From: a virus
Virus genome (UHGV): UHGV-0212837
DNA: 39,035 nt
Direction: 5' to 3' (one strand)
The notes under the pieces were generated by a model. It made no database searches. It was given only the letters and a program-made list of their open reading frames with translations, and was not told the origin of the DNA. Shown here piece after piece: positions 33,210-38,164 of the stretch (within the stretch, counting starts at the first letter, position 1; each line of letters starts with the position of its first letter). The position numbers were made by a program, and so were the translations under genes.

Positions 33210-33658
33210 TGGCTGCCTCCTTTGCGAAGTTGGGCGGCGCGATTGTTTGCCTGCTGGAGAACCATCTTCCAACCAACAACGCAATGCATATCAGATGAAC
33301 ACTGCTGATTGGAGAACTTGACCAACATTGTTTCAGCCAAGCCAGCCAAGCTATCAAGTTCGCTGGCCCGCACTTCAGCCAGGAAGGCGTCGGTGGCCGG
33401 GGTTTTGCAGGACATTTGAATTGCCTTCTCTGTGTATAAAACACCCGTTCGATTGGCGGTATACATGATGGTGTTTACAGCATCTTGATGTGCTGATTTC
33501 ACAGCCTCAACTTCAGCAGCCAGCGCCGCGCACTTGGCCTCCGCTTCAGCAAATTTACGCACCAGATATTCAGCGTTTGTTTCGTTAACCTTTAAATCTC
33601 GTGGTATGCATTTACCTTTCAGAAATCCATCCATCTCAATTAGTGACATTAGTTTCAT
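33206..33658 (-). CDS. Hypothetical protein (150 aa)
   Basis: ATG 33658 overlapping upstream stop (ATGA). Confidence 0.45.
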
Positions 33659-33837
33659 TTCTTCCCACTCCGCCACATCGCATTCAGATATTTGTTGTCA
33701 TTAACAGAACCTAAACTATTTCTCTTAAGCAATTCCTCTCTCGATGGCATTGGCTTTACGCGTTGGCGAATAATCATTTCTGCCGGAAGAATGCCGGGAT
33801 TGTATGCAAGTCCTCTCATTGTAAATTCCTCAGTCAT
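33655..33837 (-). CDS. Hypothetical small protein (60 aa)
   Basis: Internal ATG 33837; start uncertain. Confidence 0.35.
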
Positions 33838-34123
33838 TACTGATAGCGCCATAGCGTGAGCGGTAATTACGCAGGCGCGGGTCAATTTCAGGGAAGTGGG
33901 TATATGTGGCTTTGCGGAATGGTCGGATTGATGTCTGGTAAATTCGATCGCGTTCTTCTTTCTCTGCAAGCCATATACAGTGGCGAAATTCCTTTTCCTC
34001 TTTCGTTTCCTGCGGTAGCGACATTATTCGATCGTAGTTTTTTCTGAATTTATCCAGCACCTCCGATACGGAATTGCCGGAACAGCGGCGCGCGTCGTCC
34101 GCACCATACAGAGGCGCTGGCAT
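33830..34123 (-). CDS. Hypothetical protein (97 aa)
   Basis: ATG with AAGGAT SD; follows ssb. Confidence 0.4.
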
Positions 34124-34146: not shown

Positions 34147-34530
34147 TTAGAAGGGAATTGAATCGTCGTATTCAGGATGATTTTGATGATTGCTACTTTG
34201 CTGCTGTTGGCTGTTTCCTGAAGTTGCAAATCCAATCTTTGCATTCAGTAATTCAAGAGTGATTGATTGACCATTTTGCCCCTGATAAACATCAACCCTG
34301 ATGTTTTCTCCGGTAATTTCTACAATGCCACCTTCAACAAGAACACTACGGTAGTAATCCGCTTGCGCTCCCGGCTTGGCAAATACAACGGCGCTGTAGT
34401 TTGTCCATTCTTTCTTTTTTGTCTGGCGATCGTAATACTGAACGCCAGCACGGATGTTGAATCCGATATTTTCCCCGGCCTGAAACTCTCTTGCGGGCTT
34501 GTTTAGTCTTACAGTAATCGAATGTGCCAT
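34147..34530 (-). CDS. ssb: Single-stranded DNA-binding protein
   Basis: 127 aa from internal ATG 34530; acidic C-terminal tail ...DDSIPF; TAATG overlap with erf. Confidence 0.75.
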   Translation of the reverse strand: MAHSITVRLNKPAREFQAGENIGFNIRAGVQYYDRQTKKKEWTNYSAVVFAKPGAQADYYRSVLVEGGIVEITGENIRVDVYQGQNGQSITLELLNAKIGFATSGNSQQQQSSNHQNHPEYDDSIPF

Positions 34531-35135
34531 TAAGCAGCAGCTCCTTCTAATTCGTCTCGTCTGATGTTGTAAACGTCCTGCGCTTTGTGCTGCTCCGGTG
34601 TGCCTTCGAGCATCTTCCACGCTTTGGCGAACGCCTGTTTAAGCTCTTCCACGGTGTTTTTCTGCAATGCTGCGTCAGTGAATGCTTTTAGAACCTGTTC
34701 AGGTGTAGGTGATGGTTTTGATTGCTTTGCTGCTGCGTTCTGCTGATGTTTATGCTCGTCGGTATCTGCATCTTTCGCATCATCAATGCCGAACAAACCA
34801 TTGAGGCAATACTTGCGTGCATAAGAGCTTGTAGCTCCCGTAACTTGTGCAGAATCCATTCCTTTCTTGCTTTCTTCCTCTCGTGCAAGAGCGGTTGCTG
34901 TATGACTGTTTTCGCCATCAGTAATAGTTGCCGTTGCTTTCACGTAATACCGATCACCAATCAACACAACTTCATCGCTGATTGATAAAAACAGACCATT
35001 CAGTAACGGCTTAACGCCTTCAAGAATATCTTCGCAGCTTCTGTATTTATATTTGCCGAATGAGTTGTACTGATTCTTTGGCGCGTTCAGATTCTCCTGA
35101 ATAGCTGCCAGTCTTGCGTAAAATTCTTTGCTCAT
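34530..35135 (-). CDS. erf: Erf single-strand annealing recombinase (P22 Erf-like)
   Basis: MSKEFYARLAAIQENLNAPKNQYNSFGKYKYRSCEDILEG matches recalled Erf N-terminus; track start is an upstream TTG. Confidence 0.8.
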   Translation of the reverse strand: MSKEFYARLAAIQENLNAPKNQYNSFGKYKYRSCEDILEGVKPLLNGLFLSISDEVVLIGDRYYVKATATITDGENSHTATALAREEESKKGMDSAQVTGATSSYARKYCLNGLFGIDDAKDADTDEHKHQQNAAAKQSKPSPTPEQVLKAFTDAALQKNTVEELKQAFAKAWKMLEGTPEQHKAQDVYNIRRDELEGAAA

Positions 35136-35391
35136 ATGATTGTTCTCAGAATGGACACGGCCCAAGGAAATAACGCTGATTTAATACTTCGACTCGGGAC
35201 AAATTAAGGCATACCCGCATTCCTTCGCGGTCGCCATTATGGCGATACCAGAGAGCTTTCTGCGTGTACATGCGTCTCTGTAACTTGCTCTCCTTCACTG
35301 TGGTTGCAAGTGACATGAATATCTCCTTCGTTACCGATTAATTCTTTCATCTGACGAATGAATTCTTCGTCTGACCAGTTATCTGTAAAAC

Positions 35392-35544
35392 TCATTTCCT
35401 GCGATACCACGGCAGGTTGATAGCTGATTTCATCGCTTTATTTGCTTCAAGCCACATTTTGGAATCACCAATAAATCGGGCTATTACTGCTTTGTTTTGT
35501 GCTGCACGAAGCATCTGGTGATTGATGGCTATTTCATTGCGCAT
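35392..35544 (-). CDS. kil: Kil-like small protein (50 aa), not in track
   Basis: Hand translation MRNEIAINHQMLRAAQNKAVIARFIGDSKMWLEANKAMKSAINLPWYRRK; GGAGG SD; FIGD(S/E)KM motif recalled from lambda Kil. Confidence 0.45.
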   Translation of the reverse strand: MRNEIAINHQMLRAAQNKAVIARFIGDSKMWLEANKAMKSAINLPWYRRK

Positions 35545-35663
35545 AACGCCTCCAGTTGTTTCTTTGCTGCTCTGATTAATTGTTTAACTCGGCGTGATAA
35601 TTCAGATTCGTGCGGGTAGAAAGCGGACATGACGCCGCTACCCGCGAGCTGAAAGTGCATCAT
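35529..35663 (-). CDS. cIII: CIII-like FtsH inhibitor (44 aa)
   Basis: MMHFQLAGSGVMSAFYPHESELSRRVKQLIRAAKKQLEALCAMK resembles the lambda/P22 cIII core; AAGGAG SD. Confidence 0.65.
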   Translation of the reverse strand: MMHFQLAGSGVMSAFYPHESELSRRVKQLIRAAKKQLEALCAMK

Positions 35664-35738
35664 GGGTAACTCCTTATATTTGATTGCATAACGAAAACGC
35701 CTCAAGTGAAGCGTTATTGGTATGCGGTAAAGCCGCAC

Positions 35739-36107
35739 TCAGGCGGCTTTGATAGTCATATCATCTGAATCAAATATTCCTGATGTATCGATATCGGTAA
35801 TTCTTATTCCTTCGCTACCATCCATTGGAGGCCATCCTTCCTGACCATTTCCATCATTCCAGTCGAACTCACACACAACACCACATGCATTTAAGTCGCT
35901 TGAAATTGCTATAAGCAGAGCATGTTGCGCCAGCATGATTAATACAGCATTTAATACAGAGCCGTGTTTATTGAGTCGGTATTCAGAGTCTGACCAGAAA
36001 TTATTAATCTGATGAAGTTTTTCCTCTGTCATTACGTCATGGTCGATTTCAATTTCTATTGATGCTTTCCAGTCGTAATCAATGATGTATTTTTTGATGT
36101 TTGACAT
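35739..36107 (-). CDS. Hypothetical protein (122 aa)
   Basis: ATG with GAGGAT SD immediately downstream of a terminator hairpin. Confidence 0.5.
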   Translation of the reverse strand: MSNIKKYIIDYDWKASIEIEIDHDVMTEEKLHQINNFWSDSEYRLNKHGSVLNAVLIMLAQHALLIAISSDLNACGVVCEFDWNDGNGQEGWPPMDGSEGIRITDIDTSGIFDSDDMTIKAA

Positions 36108-36125
36108 CTATTCATATCCTCATAG

Positions 36126-36155
36126 ATAAAAAATTGCCCTCACATCGGAGGGCAA
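36126..36155 (-). terminator. Terminator-like hairpin (TTGCCCTC-loop-GAGGGCAA plus U-run)
   Basis: 8-bp stem, U-run on minus strand. Confidence 0.45.
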
Positions 36156-36270
36156 AGAAGATTTCCAATAATCAGAACAAGTCGGCTCCTGTTTAGTTAC
36201 GAGCGACATTGCTCCGTGTATTCACTCGTTGGAATGAATACACAGTGCAGTGTTTATTCTGTTGTTTATG

Positions 36271-36298
36271 CTAAAAATAAAGGCCGAATATTCGGCCT
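36271..36298 (-). terminator. Terminator-like hairpin (AGGCCGAA-TA-TTCGGCCT plus U-rich tail), tL1-like position
   Basis: Perfect palindrome 5 nt after the stop of the 36303-36752 gene, followed by TTTATTTTT on minus strand. Confidence 0.5.
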
Positions 36299-36302
36299 GA
36301 AA

Positions 36303-36752
36303 TTACTTAACCAATGACGCTGCATATTCAATTAGGAATAACTTAGGTGCCAGCCAAATTTTTAACCATGTCATATTGGCTACTACAGAAATAATAAAAC
36401 TGAACCATAGAATAAAAACTGCTACTAATGGTAAGACAAAACCACTTAACCTACCGTCACTTTCCCAAAGCATAGTTGGTTTGTATTTAGGCTGTCCATT
36501 ATCGCATGAGCGTCCTTCATTATCGAACTTACCAATTTCAACTTTTTTGCACTGTTTCTTCATAAACCAAATAACCAGCGGAATTGTTGAAATGGCTATT
36601 AATGTTTTAATCAGGCTATCAACCATATTCCATACCAGCAACTGATGAACAACATCCGGAATCTGTGCCTGGCTAAATGAAACAGCCGCGTCTATTCCAT
36701 TGCTGGCTTTTTGCAGTAGTTCTACGAGAATCTTGTTTGCTTGTTCTTCCAT
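36303..36752 (-). CDS. Membrane protein (149 aa, predicted TM segments); candidate superinfection-exclusion protein
   Basis: GAGGTG SD; hydrophobic helices; position immediately downstream of N. Confidence 0.55.
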   Translation of the reverse strand: MEEQANKILVELLQKASNGIDAAVSFSQAQIPDVVHQLLVWNMVDSLIKTLIAISTIPLVIWFMKKQCKKVEIGKFDNEGRSCDNGQPKYKPTMLWESDGRLSGFVLPLVAVFILWFSFIISVVANMTWLKIWLAPKLFLIEYAASLVK

Positions 36753-36760
36753 ATATCACC

Positions 36761-37087
36761 TCAAATAAGTGGTTTGCTGCCTAATTTCATTTTCTGGCGA
36801 CCAACACAAGTCACACCCATTTCACTGCGTGGCTTGCTGTACCATGTGCGCTGATTCTTGCGCTCAATACGCTGCAGGTTGCTTTCAATCTGTTCGTGGT
36901 ATTCAGCCAGCACCGTAAGGTCTATCGGATTCAGTGCGCTTTCTACTCGTGATTTCGGTTTGCGATTCAGCGAGAGAATAGGGCGGTTAACTGGTTTTGC
37001 GCTTACCCCAACCAACAGGGGATTTGCTGCTTTCCATTTAGCCTGTTTCTCTGAGCGACGTTCGCGGCGGCGTGTTTGTGCATCCAT
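36761..37087 (-). CDS. N: Antiterminator N
   Basis: 108 aa from internal ATG 37087, near-identical to recalled lambda N (MDAQTRRRERR...); AGGAGA SD. Confidence 0.9.
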   Translation of the reverse strand: MDAQTRRRERRSEKQAKWKAANPLLVGVSAKPVNRPILSLNRKPKSRVESALNPIDLTVLAEYHEQIESNLQRIERKNQRTWYSKPRSEMGVTCVGRQKMKLGSKPLI

Positions 37088-37244
37088 CTGGATTCTCCTG
37101 TCAGTTAGCTTTGGTTGTGTGTGGGAGTCGTAGTCCTGAACGAAAACACCCCGCAATGGCACATTGGCAGCTAATCCGGATTCGCACTTCCGGCCAATGC
37201 TTCGTTTCGTATCACACACACCAAAGCCTTCTGCTTTGAATGCT

Positions 37245-37275
37245 GCCCTTCTTCAGGGCTTAATTTTTAAGAGCA
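37245..37275 (-). promoter_or_regulatory. nutL (boxB GCCCUGAAGAAGGGC at 37245-37259; boxA-like UGCUCUUA at 37268-37275)
   Basis: boxB read on the minus strand matches the recalled lambda nutL boxB; boxA upstream at the expected spacing. Confidence 0.7.
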
Positions 37276-37314
37276 TCACCTTCATGGTGGTCAGTGCGTC
37301 CTGCTGATGGCTAA

Positions 37315-37343
37315 ATAGTACGATTTGTACTTTATCGAGTCAA
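37315..37343 (-). promoter_or_regulatory. pL promoter (-35 TTGACT 37338-37343, -10 TACTAT 37315-37320) overlapping an operator palindrome
   Basis: Hexamers with 17-bp spacer on minus strand; AGTACGATTTGTACT palindrome 37317-37331. Confidence 0.6.
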
Positions 37344-37404
37344 TACAAAATGTTCTAAATATAATTAGTTTTTTATAACGCTTTGTATTTAATGGGTTTA
37401 TATT

Positions 37405-37438
37405 TTGGAAAAAGAAAACCCGACGCTAAGGTCGGGTT
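37405..37438 (-). terminator. Terminator immediately downstream of cI
   Basis: CCCGAC-loop-GTCGGG hairpin with U-rich tract; no rex-like genes between cI and pL. Confidence 0.5.
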
Positions 37439-37468
37439 ATTGTTGTGTGTTTTAGAGTGGTGAGGCTG

Positions 37469-38164
37469 TTAACTAAATGTCTCTTCAGGCCACTGGCTGG
37501 CGATAACTTTCCCTACTACGGAACAGCTATCATTGCATGGAATCATTGGATATTGCGGGTTTAGTGGCTGGAGGAACACCTGACCGCTATCCCTGATCAG
37601 TTTCTTAAAGGTAAACTCGTCACCACCAAGTCTAGCTATGCAGAAATCACCTGGCTCAACAGCCTGATCAGGGTCAACGAGAATTAACATCCCGTCAGGA
37701 AAGCTTGGCTTGGATCCTGTTGGCGCGGTCATGGAATTACCTTCAACTTCAAGCCAAAACGCACAATCACTGGCTTTTTTGGTTGTGCTGACCCATCTCT
37801 CCGCATCACCTTTGGTAAAGGTTCTAAGCTCAGGCGAGAACATCCCGGCCTGAACATGAGAAAAAACAGGGTACTCATATTGTTTTTTAACGGGGGCAGA
37901 TGAGTATTCGCCAACAGGTGAAAATGTACCGTCGTGGTTGAATGAGACGTTATCAATACCAAGGTATTTAAACACCACACCAATCTCGTCAAGAGATGGA
38001 TGACGAGATCCGCGCAACCAGTGACCAATTCCACCCTGCGTCATACCAAGCTCTTCAGCTAACTTCTCTTGAGTTATGCCGAGCTCTTTCATTCTGGATC
38101 TAGCCAGTTCATACCATTTCATTTTCATACCCTTATTATTACGCTCTGTACTAAAACCATCCAT
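37469..38164 (-). CDS. cI: CI-type repressor (S24 peptidase domain near-identical to lambda cI; heterologous HTH domain)
   Basis: C-terminal ~130 aa match recalled lambda cI including the Ala-Gly cleavage context; first ATG at 38164, track begins at an upstream TTG (38170). Confidence 0.85.

What the first reader, a model, noticed from the sequence alone, without database searches (positions are those of the whole stretch)
35739..36752. Membrane protein and a 122-aa unknown immediately downstream of N, separated by two terminator hairpins
The 149-aa predicted membrane protein (36303-36752) lies where lambda and P22 carry ral or sieB-type exclusion functions. It is followed by two minus-strand hairpins (36271-36298 and 36126-36155) and a 9-bp inverted repeat (36216-36243) before the 122-aa gene. 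This could be a superinfection-exclusion or abortive-infection module expressed only on N-antiterminated transcripts.
Basis: partly seen in the sequence, partly recalled or inferred. Interest (0 to 1): 0.5.

Follow-up and report, generated by a model that had tools for sequence, protein, structure and literature searches.

The report
Lambda-like early genes plus PreS sRNA
The stretch after the phage N gene is not a two-gene exclusion module but three separate pieces of a lambda-type early-left operon: an uncharacterised but very widespread small membrane protein with its own terminator, the recently described PreS small RNA (whose end is terminator tL2a), and lambda's Ea10 protein.

Summary
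A 149-aa two-TM protein gene (36752-36303), two intrinsic-terminator hairpins, an inverted repeat and a 122-aa gene (36107-35739) are all on the minus strand as described.

- The 122-aa "unknown" is lambda Ea10 (121/122 aa identical; Pfam DUF2528).
- Window 35687-36285 is 97.8% identical to lambda ea10 plus the ral-ea10 spacer. That spacer encodes the Hfq-dependent sRNA PreS/LPR1, which ends at terminator tL2a. The second hairpin is therefore the PreS terminator (PreS = 36214-36127, seed intact).
- The "9-bp" repeat is a 14-bp hairpin that abuts the PreS 5' end.
- The first hairpin belongs to the membrane-gene cassette. This cassette occupies the lambda ral slot and shares both junction sequences with the ral cassette.
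- The membrane gene starts 8 nt after the N stop and lies upstream of every terminator. By position it is immediate-early and N-independent, not "only on antiterminated transcripts".
- It has no detectable homology to SieB, SieA, Ral or any Pfam, NCBIfam or PADLOC model.
- It belongs to phrog_3054 (Sf6 gp34), a family of more than 5,000 50%-identity clusters that moves like a moron among lambdoid, N4-like, phi92-like and Vibrio phages.

Its function is unknown. Exclusion is possible but untested.

The parts
36761..37087 (-). N antiterminator gene (108 aa). Its TGA stop overlaps the Shine-Dalgarno sequence of the next gene.
   Evidence: Pfam N36 at 5.7e-25 and phrog_271. 93.7% nt identity to lambda N. 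pL-like promoter at 37343-37315 and the nutL boxB hairpin at 37259-37245 lie upstream.
36303..36752 (-). 149-aa two-TM inner-membrane protein of the phrog_3054 / Sf6 gp34 family. The N-terminal (1-45) and C-terminal (125-149) segments are conserved and flank a hypervariable TM1-loop-TM2 core.
   Evidence: phrog_3054 at 5e-59; no Pfam, NCBIfam or PADLOC hit. Hydropathy. Alignments A2 and A3 and per-region identities. 5364 cluster representatives at E<=1e-3. GAGGTGA Shine-Dalgarno sequence 6 nt before the ATG.
36271..36298 (-). Intrinsic terminator of the membrane-gene cassette. It is the first terminator downstream of pL, so it takes the role that tL1 has in lambda. Its 3' arm and tail, GGCCTTTATTTTT, form the mosaic joint shared with the ral terminator of lambda and Sf6.
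   Evidence: 7-bp stem with 5 GC pairs and a TTATTTTT tail. -11.9 kcal/mol, z -4.4. Alignment A1 shows that lambda keeps only the 3' arm and tail, directly after the ral stop. Sf6 has both terminators. Analogous terminators follow the homologues in HK639 and Oslo.
36214..36245 (-). Its last base is the 5' end of PreS as cloned. It may be a processing or 5'-end determinant; this is inferred.
   Evidence: Folds (-18.8 kcal/mol, z -6.3). Identical in lambda and Sf6.
36127..36214 (-). PreS (LPR1) Hfq-dependent small RNA gene, about 88 nt. It includes the seed region (TTGTTCTGATTATTGG, 36180-36165).
   Evidence: Lambda PreS lies between ral and ea10 and ends at tL2a (bioRxiv 10.1101/2024.10.31.621285). 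Cloning primer P810 fixes the 5' end at GAGCAATGTCGCTCGTAACT. The first 68 nt match the window exactly. 96.6% identity to lambda over 88 nt. Alignment A1.
36126..36155 (-). tL2a-homologous intrinsic terminator. It is the 3' stem-loop and U-tail (Hfq-binding module) of PreS.
   Evidence: 8-bp stem plus TTTTTT. -13.2 kcal/mol. The Sf6 GenBank record annotates the homologous hairpin as 'homology to phage lambda; tL2A'. The preprint equates the PreS 3' end with tL2a.
35739..36107 (-). ea10: lambda early protein Ea10 (DUF2528), 122 aa.
   Evidence: 121/122 aa identical to lambda Ea10. Pfam PF10800 at 7.9e-47. 97.8% nt identity to lambda 33483-34082. AlphaFold2 pLDDT 94.8.
35686..35715 (-). Third terminator-like hairpin, between ea10 and cIII. 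It lies inside the lambda-identical block. It is probably the next member of lambda's tL2 cluster (from my own knowledge; not verified here).
   Evidence: -9.9 kcal/mol, z -3.4.
35529..35663 (-). cIII gene (context; the next gene of the operon).
   Evidence: Pfam cIII at 6.4e-30.

Best explanation
The region is a mosaic stretch of a lambda-type early-left (pL) operon made of three independent units, not one module.

Unit 1: an accessory-gene cassette. It consists of a shared translation-start junction (AGGTGATATATGGAAGAA), a 149-aa two-TM membrane protein of the large uncharacterised phrog_3054 / Sf6-gp34 family, and the cassette's own intrinsic terminator. It is fused directly to the end of N, in the slot where lambda has sieB and ral. 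No terminator lies between pL and this gene. It should therefore be made together with N as an immediate-early product after infection or induction, and should be repressed with pL in the lysogen. Its terminator is the first stop for RNA polymerase not modified by N.

Unit 2: the PreS/LPR1 small RNA gene, preceded by a 14-bp hairpin and ending in terminator tL2a. In lambda this Hfq-bound sRNA activates dnaN translation and supports lytic replication.

Unit 3: ea10, lambda's abundant, non-essential early protein of unknown function. By position it is reached only by N-modified polymerase.

What the membrane protein does is inferred, not shown. It appears to act alone. The positive-inside rule predicts that its conserved N- and C-terminal segments face the periplasm, anchored by a variable helical hairpin. 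It most likely acts early in lytic growth at the envelope. I put about 0.3 on exclusion of secondary DNA entry (T4 Imm-like logic), about 0.3 on manipulation of a conserved host envelope component, and the remainder on other functions.
For: Identity of the parts:
- Ea10 is 121/122 aa identical to lambda Ea10 and matches DUF2528.
- Window 35687-36285 is 97.8% identical to lambda 33483-34082.
- PreS is defined in lambda between ral and ea10 with its 3' end at tL2a. Its 5' end comes from primer P810. The first 68 nt match exactly and the seed is intact in the window.

Cassette nature:
- Lambda retains only the 3' arm and tail of the first hairpin, directly after the ral stop.
- Sf6 and CUS-3 carry ral and the homologue in tandem, each followed by a terminator ending in GCCTTTATTTTT.
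- The 5' junction is identical upstream of lambda orf28/ral and upstream of the membrane gene.

Expression logic:
- The gap after N is 8 nt and the Shine-Dalgarno sequence overlaps the N stop.
- No terminator-like site lies between pL and 36303, and no promoter-like site lies upstream of the gene in the window, Sf6 or HK639.

Independence of the units:
- The homologue occurs with non-ea10 neighbours in Sf6, HK639 and Oslo.
- It also occurs after Rz (PhiR46_1), between head-closure and tail-completion genes (L016, L018, and L019 where it is alone on the opposite strand), and among early genes of N4-like and phi92-like phages.

Family features:
- Conserved termini and a variable core.
- 95% of 116 members have more K+R on the loop flanks than on the terminal flanks.
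- 5364 cluster representatives at E<=1e-3.
Against: - No expression data exist for this phage. A weak promoter inside N, or Rho-dependent termination, cannot be excluded by a consensus scan.
- PreS production here is inferred from sequence identity only. How an RNA that ends at tL2a arises downstream of another terminator in an N-antiterminated operon is unexplained, in lambda as well.
- The topology prediction rests on the positive-inside rule alone, and the AlphaFold2 model is poor (pLDDT 61).
- The membrane protein's function has no direct support of any kind. The literature searches made here (Sf6 gene 34, the Hf4s preprint, superinfection-exclusion papers) found no paper on the family.
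Confidence: 0.75

Rival explanations
1. One reading: the membrane protein and the 122-aa protein form one superinfection-exclusion or abortive-infection module, and the two hairpins gate it so that it is expressed only on N-antiterminated transcripts.
For: The position corresponds to the sieB/ral slot of lambda and P22. The protein is membrane-bound. Two real terminators are present.
Against: - The membrane gene lies upstream of both terminators.
- The 122-aa protein is lambda Ea10, which exists in lambda and in most matching E. coli genomes without the membrane gene.
- The membrane gene travels without ea10.
- The second hairpin belongs to PreS.
- There are no SieB, SieA or PADLOC matches.
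Confidence: 0.05
2. The 149-aa protein alone is a lytic-cycle superinfection-exclusion protein. It would be made immediately after infection or induction, like T4 Imm or Sp, and would block DNA entry of secondary phages at the inner membrane through its periplasm-facing conserved termini.
For: - Immediate-early position.
- Present among early genes of strictly virulent N4-like and phi92-like phages.
- Moron-like mobility, including the head-tail junction slot. To my knowledge, the HK97 gp15 Sie moron sits in a comparable structural-gene position.
- Predicted periplasmic termini.
- Neighbours in this slot are defence or counter-defence genes.
Against: - No homology to any known Sie protein.
- The termini are conserved across phages of very different hosts and injection machineries, which fits a conserved host target better than a phage target.
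- It co-occurs with SieB in Oslo.
- No phenotype data exist.
Confidence: 0.3
3. The 149-aa protein is a host-takeover factor. Through its conserved terminal helices it would bind a conserved host envelope or inner-membrane component (for example the division, peptidoglycan, protease or secretion machinery) to favour lytic growth, rather than exclude other phages.
For: - The termini are strongly conserved from E. coli to Vibrio, Pseudomonas and Ralstonia phages, while the membrane core is free to vary.
- It is expressed early, alongside kil, cIII and gam-type host modulators in the same operon.
- It has no conserved partner gene.
Against: No candidate target has been identified. The distribution is patchy and cassette-like, which is more typical of conflict genes than of core takeover functions. 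No toxicity or phenotype data exist.
Confidence: 0.3
4. The 149-aa gene is a classical moron expressed from its own promoter in the lysogen, giving the host a lysogenic-conversion phenotype (exclusion, envelope change).
For: It has its own terminator and conserved cassette junctions. In Vibrio phage 115E34-1 it stands alone on the opposite strand inside the structural module. In PhiR46_1 it sits after Rz.
Against: In the window, Sf6 and HK639 no sigma-70-like promoter is found upstream. In the window the gene is 8 nt from the N stop, with a Shine-Dalgarno sequence that overlaps that stop codon.
Confidence: 0.1
5. The 149-aa protein is lysis-related (a holin, antiholin or lysis-timing factor).
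For: It is small with two TMs. One homologue lies about 800 bp from an endolysin gene (L017). One lies downstream of Rz.
Against: In lambdoid phages it is in the immediate-early operon, far from the lysis cassette. In N4-like phages it sits among early and nucleotide-metabolism genes. In L016 and L018 the neighbouring 183-aa gene is a sialyltransferase-like protein, not an endolysin.
Confidence: 0.04

Closest known systems
Phage lambda pL operon segment N - (sieB) - orf28/ral - PreS/tL2a - ea10 - tL2 hairpin - cIII - kil
   Same: The gene order and sequence of N, of the ral-ea10 spacer with PreS and tL2a, of ea10 and of the ea10-cIII hairpin are the same (94-98% nt identity). The translation-start junction and the terminator tail around the variable slot are also the same.
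   Different: The sieB region is absent and ral/orf28 is replaced by the 149-aa membrane-protein cassette. From my own knowledge, tL1 lies in that missing region in lambda. The first terminator after N is therefore the cassette's own hairpin.
Shigella phage Sf6 genes 37 (N) - 36 - 35 (ral) - 34 - tL2A - 33
   Same: gp34 is a homologue: 49% aa identity overall, with 93-95% nt identity at the two gene ends. It is followed by the same terminator, 14-bp hairpin, PreS and tL2A.
   Different: Sf6 keeps ral upstream, so it has tandem cassettes. The TM-loop core of gp34 cannot be aligned at the nucleotide level. Downstream lies gene 33 instead of ea10.
PreS (LPR1) Hfq-dependent sRNA of lambda (bioRxiv 10.1101/2024.10.31.621285)
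   Same: The position, the 5' end sequence, the seed, the terminator stem and the U-tail are the same, with 85/88 nt identical.
   Different: The terminator differs by two loop bases and one stem base; the window's stem is fully paired. The upstream neighbour is the membrane gene's terminator instead of ral's. Expression and Hfq binding were not tested here.
SieB (lambda, P22; Pfam PF14163)
   Same: It is a membrane protein in the same inter-N/cIII accessory slot.
   Different: There is no sequence or profile similarity. sieB lies on the opposite strand; in the P22 record it has an annotated promoter and an internal esc start, so it can be expressed in the lysogen. The two proteins coexist side by side in phage Oslo.
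T4 Imm / Sp, P22 SieA, HK97 gp15 (small inner-membrane superinfection-exclusion proteins)
   Same: All are small phage-encoded inner-membrane proteins. The early timing resembles Imm and Sp, and the moron-like placement resembles gp15 (these resemblances are partly from my own knowledge).
   Different: There is no homology: hhalign probability to SieA is 0.7%, and no Sie-annotated PHROG or Pfam family is hit. No phenotype is known.

Membership tests
Lambda Ea10 / DUF2528 (PF10800) | Sequence match to the Pfam model above the gathering score, and to lambda Ea10 itself | tested here: met
   158.5 bits against a cut-off of 22. 121/122 aa identical to lambda Ea10.
Lambda Ea10 / DUF2528 (PF10800) | Position in the pL operon between tL2a and cIII | tested here: met
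   Colinear with lambda 33483-34082 at 97.8% nt identity, with cIII and kil downstream.
PreS (LPR1) sRNA | Sequence identity to lambda lpr1 (the authors used at least 92% identity and no more than 3 gaps) | tested here: met
   88/88 nt aligned at 96.6% identity. The first 68 nt match the cloned 5' part exactly.
PreS (LPR1) sRNA | Intact seed region (mutated in LPR1-M1 and M2) | tested here: met
   TTGTTCTGATTATTGGAAATC is identical to lambda.
PreS (LPR1) sRNA | GC-rich terminator stem plus poly-U tail (Hfq module; equals tL2a) | tested here: met
   8-bp stem followed by six U residues.
PreS (LPR1) sRNA | Accumulation as ~88/68-nt Hfq-bound RNA in the lytic cycle, and regulation of dnaN | not testable with these tools
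   Needs Northern blots, RIL-seq and reporter assays. Rfam 15 has no model that matches this region.
SieB (PF14163) | Sequence or profile similarity to SieB | tested here: not met
   0 of 14 family members hit PF14163 at E<=1, whereas lambda SieB hits it at 1e-29. BLASTP E = 2.3. hhalign probability 0.1%.
SieB (PF14163) | Transcribed from its own promoter on the strand opposite pL, so expressed in the lysogen | tested here: not met
   The gene is co-oriented with pL, starts 8 nt after the N stop, and has no promoter-like site upstream. Lambda and P22 sieB are on the other strand.
SieB (PF14163) | Abortive-infection phenotype against heteroimmune phages | not testable with these tools
   Needs phage challenge experiments.
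Ral (restriction alleviation) | Sequence similarity to Ral | tested here: not met
   No Pfam or NCBIfam hit. Only the start junction upstream of orf28/ral is shared with lambda.
P22 SieA-type injection blockers | Profile similarity to SieA | tested here: not met
   hhalign probability 0.7% over a TM segment only.
phrog_3054 / Sf6 gp34 family | Full-length HMM match | tested here: met
   5.3e-59 covering residues 1-149 of the protein and positions 1-137 of the profile. All 14 diverse members hit the model.
phrog_3054 / Sf6 gp34 family | Two TM segments flanked by the conserved N-terminal motif (F..Q.P.V..QLL.W) and C-terminal motif (I..APK..L.EYA) | tested here: met
   Alignments A2 and A3, their invariant columns and per-region identities.
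Moron (independent promoter-gene-terminator unit inserted between conserved genes) | Own terminator, and presence or absence between conserved flanks | tested here: met
   Other insertion sites.
Moron (independent promoter-gene-terminator unit inserted between conserved genes) | Own promoter | tested here: inconclusive
   The consensus scan finds none in the window, Sf6 or HK639. The opposite-strand copy in Vibrio phage 115E34-1 implies a promoter there.

The most novel reading that the evidence does not exclude
The phrog_3054 / Sf6-gp34 proteins would be a very large class of phage early inner-membrane proteins that has never been studied (more than 5,000 clusters at 50% identity, and no Pfam model matched by any member tested). 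They spread as a promoter-less or moron-like cassette among lambdoid, N4-like, phi92-like, jumbo and Vibrio phages. Through their conserved periplasm-facing termini they would perform a common function, most attractively an Imm-like block to secondary DNA entry during the lytic cycle. A second, smaller novelty would be that the conserved 14-bp hairpin abutting PreS defines the sRNA's 5' end by processing of the pL transcript.
Probability: 0.3. Interest if true: 0.55.

Novelty: new member of a known kind. Interest (0 to 1): 0.3.

Why it matters
Practically, it corrects an annotation trap. The spacer "terminators" in lambdoid early-left operons include a functional sRNA gene (PreS), and the "unknown" next to it is Ea10.

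It also shows how this slot evolves. The ral and membrane-protein cassettes are exchanged or stacked through identical short junctions: a start-site sequence and a terminator tail.

The one open item is the membrane protein. It belongs to a very large phage family with no Pfam model and no paper found in the searches made here. It is positioned to be made at the same moment as N. A simple plasmid-challenge and topology experiment could assign a function to thousands of phage genes.

Tried and rejected
- AlphaFold2 of the 149-aa protein with a 116-sequence alignment gave pLDDT 61 and pTM 0.34. This is too poor for a fold search, so none was run.
- The afdb50 fold library was unavailable.
- BFVD gave one unnamed hit.
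- PDB sequence searches found no hits for either protein.
- PADLOC and NCBIfam gave no hits.
- Rfam had no match in 35300-37500 at E<=1, so PreS appears not to be modelled in Rfam 15.
- Literature searches for Sf6 gene 34, the Hf4s homologue, DUF2528 and tL2a/tL2b gave nothing useful beyond the PreS preprint and Ea10's non-essentiality.
- A holin or lysis role was considered and rejected on genomic context.
- A conserved partner gene was looked for and not found.
- Covariation analysis of the 14-bp hairpin was not attempted, because all available copies are more than 95% identical.
Full report
**Context.** The window carries a lambdoid early region on the minus strand. In order it holds:
- a LexA-family cI-like repressor gene (38170-37469);
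- a pL-like promoter (37343-37315);
- the nutL boxB hairpin (37259-37245);
- N (37087-36761; Pfam N36, 5.7e-25);
- the 149-aa ORF (36752-36303);
- a 195-bp spacer;
- the 122-aa ORF (36107-35739);
- cIII (35663-35529), kil (35544-35392) and an Erf-type recombinase gene.

**Observation check.**
- The terminator scan finds minus-strand sites at 36298-36281, 36155-34 and 35715-35696. That is six sites in 2.2 kb, against 1.6 +/- 1.5 in shuffles.
- Each hairpin folds far better than shuffled controls: -11.9, -13.2 and -9.9 kcal/mol, with z scores from -3.4 to -4.4.
- The 9-bp repeat is the core of a 14-bp hairpin, 36245-36232 paired with 36227-36214, at -18.8 kcal/mol (z -6.3).
- The 149-aa product has two strongly hydrophobic 19-aa windows.

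**The 122-aa protein is Ea10.**
- It matches Pfam DUF2528 at 7.9e-47 and is 121/122 identical to lambda Ea10.
- Window 35687-36285 is 97.8% identical to lambda 33483-34082, which is ea10 plus the whole ea10-ral spacer.
- Ea10 is a known lambda early protein. It is abundant (PMC3961180) and dispensable for plaque formation (PMC10695390). Its function is still unknown.
- No OB-fold protein is recognisable among the listed hits, so the historical "ssb" label in the lambda record is not supported.

**The spacer contains the PreS sRNA gene.**
- A 2024 preprint (10.1101/2024.10.31.621285) describes LPR1/PreS, an Hfq-dependent sRNA of about 88 nt that is processed to about 68 nt.
- PreS is encoded between ral and ea10, and its 3' end is terminator tL2a. 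It is made in the lytic cycle, activates dnaN translation and represses alaS.
- The authors' cloning primer gives the 5' end as GAGCAATGTCGCTCGTAACT. This sequence and the following 48 nt occur exactly once in the window, at 36214-36147.
- The full 88 nt are 96.6% identical to lambda. The differences are confined to the terminator loop and one stem position, and the seed mutated in LPR1-M1/M2 is unchanged.
The Sf6 GenBank record annotates the same hairpin as a tL2A homologue.
- The 14-bp hairpin ends exactly at the PreS 5' end. It is identical in lambda and Sf6. I infer that it may mark a processing site, but this is untested.
- Rfam 15 has no matching model in this region.

**The first hairpin belongs to a gene cassette.**
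- Homology with lambda breaks inside this hairpin. Lambda has only its 3' arm and tail (GGCCTTTATTTTT), directly after the ral stop codon.
- In Sf6, ral and gene 34 are adjacent, and each is followed by a terminator ending in that same sequence.
- At the other end, the sequence AGGTGATATATGGAAGAA (Shine-Dalgarno sequence, ATG, Met-Glu-Glu) is shared by the start of lambda orf28/ral, by the equivalent site in Sf6, and by the start of the membrane gene in the window, Sf6, CUS-3 and E. coli SLK172.
- So the ral cassette and the membrane-protein cassette have identical junctions. They occur singly (lambda; this window) or in tandem (Sf6, CUS-3).
- In this window the sieB region of lambda is missing and the cassette is joined directly to N.

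**Expression logic (inferred).**
- The membrane gene starts 8 nt after the N stop, and its GAGGTGA Shine-Dalgarno sequence overlaps that stop.
- No terminator-like site lies between pL and the gene. No promoter-like site lies just upstream of it here, in Sf6 or in HK639.
- It should therefore be co-transcribed with N before N acts, and its terminator should end a message of about 1.0 kb.
- PreS and ea10 lie behind one and two terminators respectively.
- How an RNA terminated at tL2a accumulates in an antiterminated operon is not explained, either by my data or, as far as I could find, by the preprint.

**What the membrane protein is.**
- It hits no Pfam, NCBIfam or PADLOC model.
- It matches phrog_3054 (unknown function) at 5e-59.
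- tblastn finds homologues in 181 phage records:
  - Sf6 gp34, CUS-3, HK639, HK633 and Oslo;
  - Stx2a phages;
  - N4-like Salmonella, Klebsiella and Vibrio phages;
  - phi92-like myophages;
  - a Ralstonia jumbo phage;
  - many Vibrio phages.
- All database names are "hypothetical" or "TMhelix containing".
- A profile search of 1.84 billion cluster representatives finds 5364 members at E<=1e-3, all 120-180 aa.
- The family has conserved N-terminal (1-45) and C-terminal (125-149) segments and a hypervariable TM1-loop-TM2 core. Identity to the window in the distant set is 48% and 62% for the termini, against 12-16% for the core.
- At the DNA level, the window and Sf6 genes are 93-95% identical at both ends and cannot be aligned in the middle.
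- In 95% of 116 members, K+R residues are enriched on the loop flanks. This predicts a cytoplasmic loop and periplasmic termini. It is an inference from the positive-inside rule only.
- AlphaFold2 gave a low-confidence model (pLDDT 61), so I did not use it.

**Tests against known exclusion families.**
- Lambda SieB hits Pfam PF14163 at 1e-29, whereas none of 14 family members does at E<=1.
- BLASTP against lambda SieB gives E = 2.3.
- hhalign probabilities are 0.1% for lambda and P22 SieB and 0.7% for P22 SieA.
- sieB in lambda and P22 lies on the opposite strand; in P22 it has an annotated promoter. This gene does not lie on the opposite strand.
- In phage Oslo, sieB and the homologue sit side by side.
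- The protein is therefore not a member of any known exclusion family.

**Context elsewhere.**
- The homologue has no conserved neighbour.
- In lambdoid phages it follows N, ral or sieB, and it precedes ea10, Sf6 gene 33, or other genes.
- PreS follows it in the window, in two E. coli prophages, in Sf6, HK633 and CUS-3, and partly in a Stx2a phage. PreS does not follow it in HK639, Oslo, PhiR46_1 or a Klebsiella phage.
- In PhiR46_1 it lies between Rz and Nu1.
- In a Pseudomonas contig, a metagenomic contig and Vibrio myophage 115E34-1 it lies between head-closure and tail-completion genes. In the last of these it is alone on the opposite strand.
- In N4-like and phi92-like phages it lies among early genes.
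- This is moron-like mobility, typical of accessory conflict genes. It is only circumstantial support for an exclusion role.

**Co-occurrence.** Of 5426 complete E. coli genomes, 2282 match the 1.1-kb query, mostly through ea10 and PreS. Only 56 cover it fully, and 248 match the membrane gene at all. The two proteins are not a module.

**Verdict.** Most of the region is explained by known lambda biology (Ea10, PreS/tL2a, mosaic cassette exchange). The open point is the function of a very widespread, unstudied early membrane protein. Exclusion is one of two roughly equally likely guesses. Interest is low to moderate (0.3).

Noticed in passing
window 36127-36214 (-): An intact copy of the lambda PreS/LPR1 Hfq-dependent sRNA gene sits in the spacer.
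   Followed up: yes
window 36214-36245 and 36254-36261 / 36173-36180 (-): A conserved 14-bp hairpin ends exactly at the PreS 5' end. In the fold of the unprocessed spacer, the PreS seed (UUGUUCUG) pairs with an upstream CAGAAUAA. This could mask the seed until processing. Both ideas are untested.
   Followed up: partly
window 36741-36761 and 36271-36285; L003 (lambda), L004 (Sf6), L012 (CUS-3): The ral and membrane-protein cassettes share an identical 5' junction (AGGTGATATATGGAAGAA) and 3' junction (GGCCTTTATTTTT). These short conserved boundary sequences probably mediate cassette exchange or stacking.
   Followed up: yes
window 36370-36614 vs L004 3139-3356: Intragenic mosaicism. The window gene and Sf6 gene 34 are 93-95% identical at both ends but cannot be aligned in the TM1-loop-TM2 core.
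   Followed up: partly
window 35686-35715 (-): A third terminator-like hairpin lies between ea10 and cIII, inside the lambda-identical block. It is probably the next member of lambda's tL2 cluster.
   Followed up: partly
window 37417-37438 (both strands): A symmetric GC-rich hairpin with T-runs on both sides lies between the end of the cI-like gene and pL. It looks like a bidirectional terminator. There are no rexAB-type genes in this gap.
   Followed up: no
[not shown]
   Followed up: partly
L019 4001-4405 (Vibrio phage 115E34-1); L016, L018: Homologues of the membrane protein are inserted between head-closure and tail-completion genes. In one case the gene is alone on the opposite strand, which is classical moron placement.
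   Followed up: partly
L011 1069-2250 (Salmonella phage Oslo): sieB (opposite strand) and the membrane-protein homologue are adjacent in one phage, so they are not simple alternatives.
   Followed up: partly
L013 1491-2166 (phage HK633): The tblastn match to the 149-aa protein spans two annotated ORFs (HK633_045 and HK633_044). This suggests a mis-annotation or a frameshift in that record.
   Followed up: no
window 34147-35165 (-): The recombination module is P22/HK-type (an Erf-like annealase plus an SSB-like protein) rather than lambda Red. This underlines the mosaic make-up of this phage.
   Followed up: no
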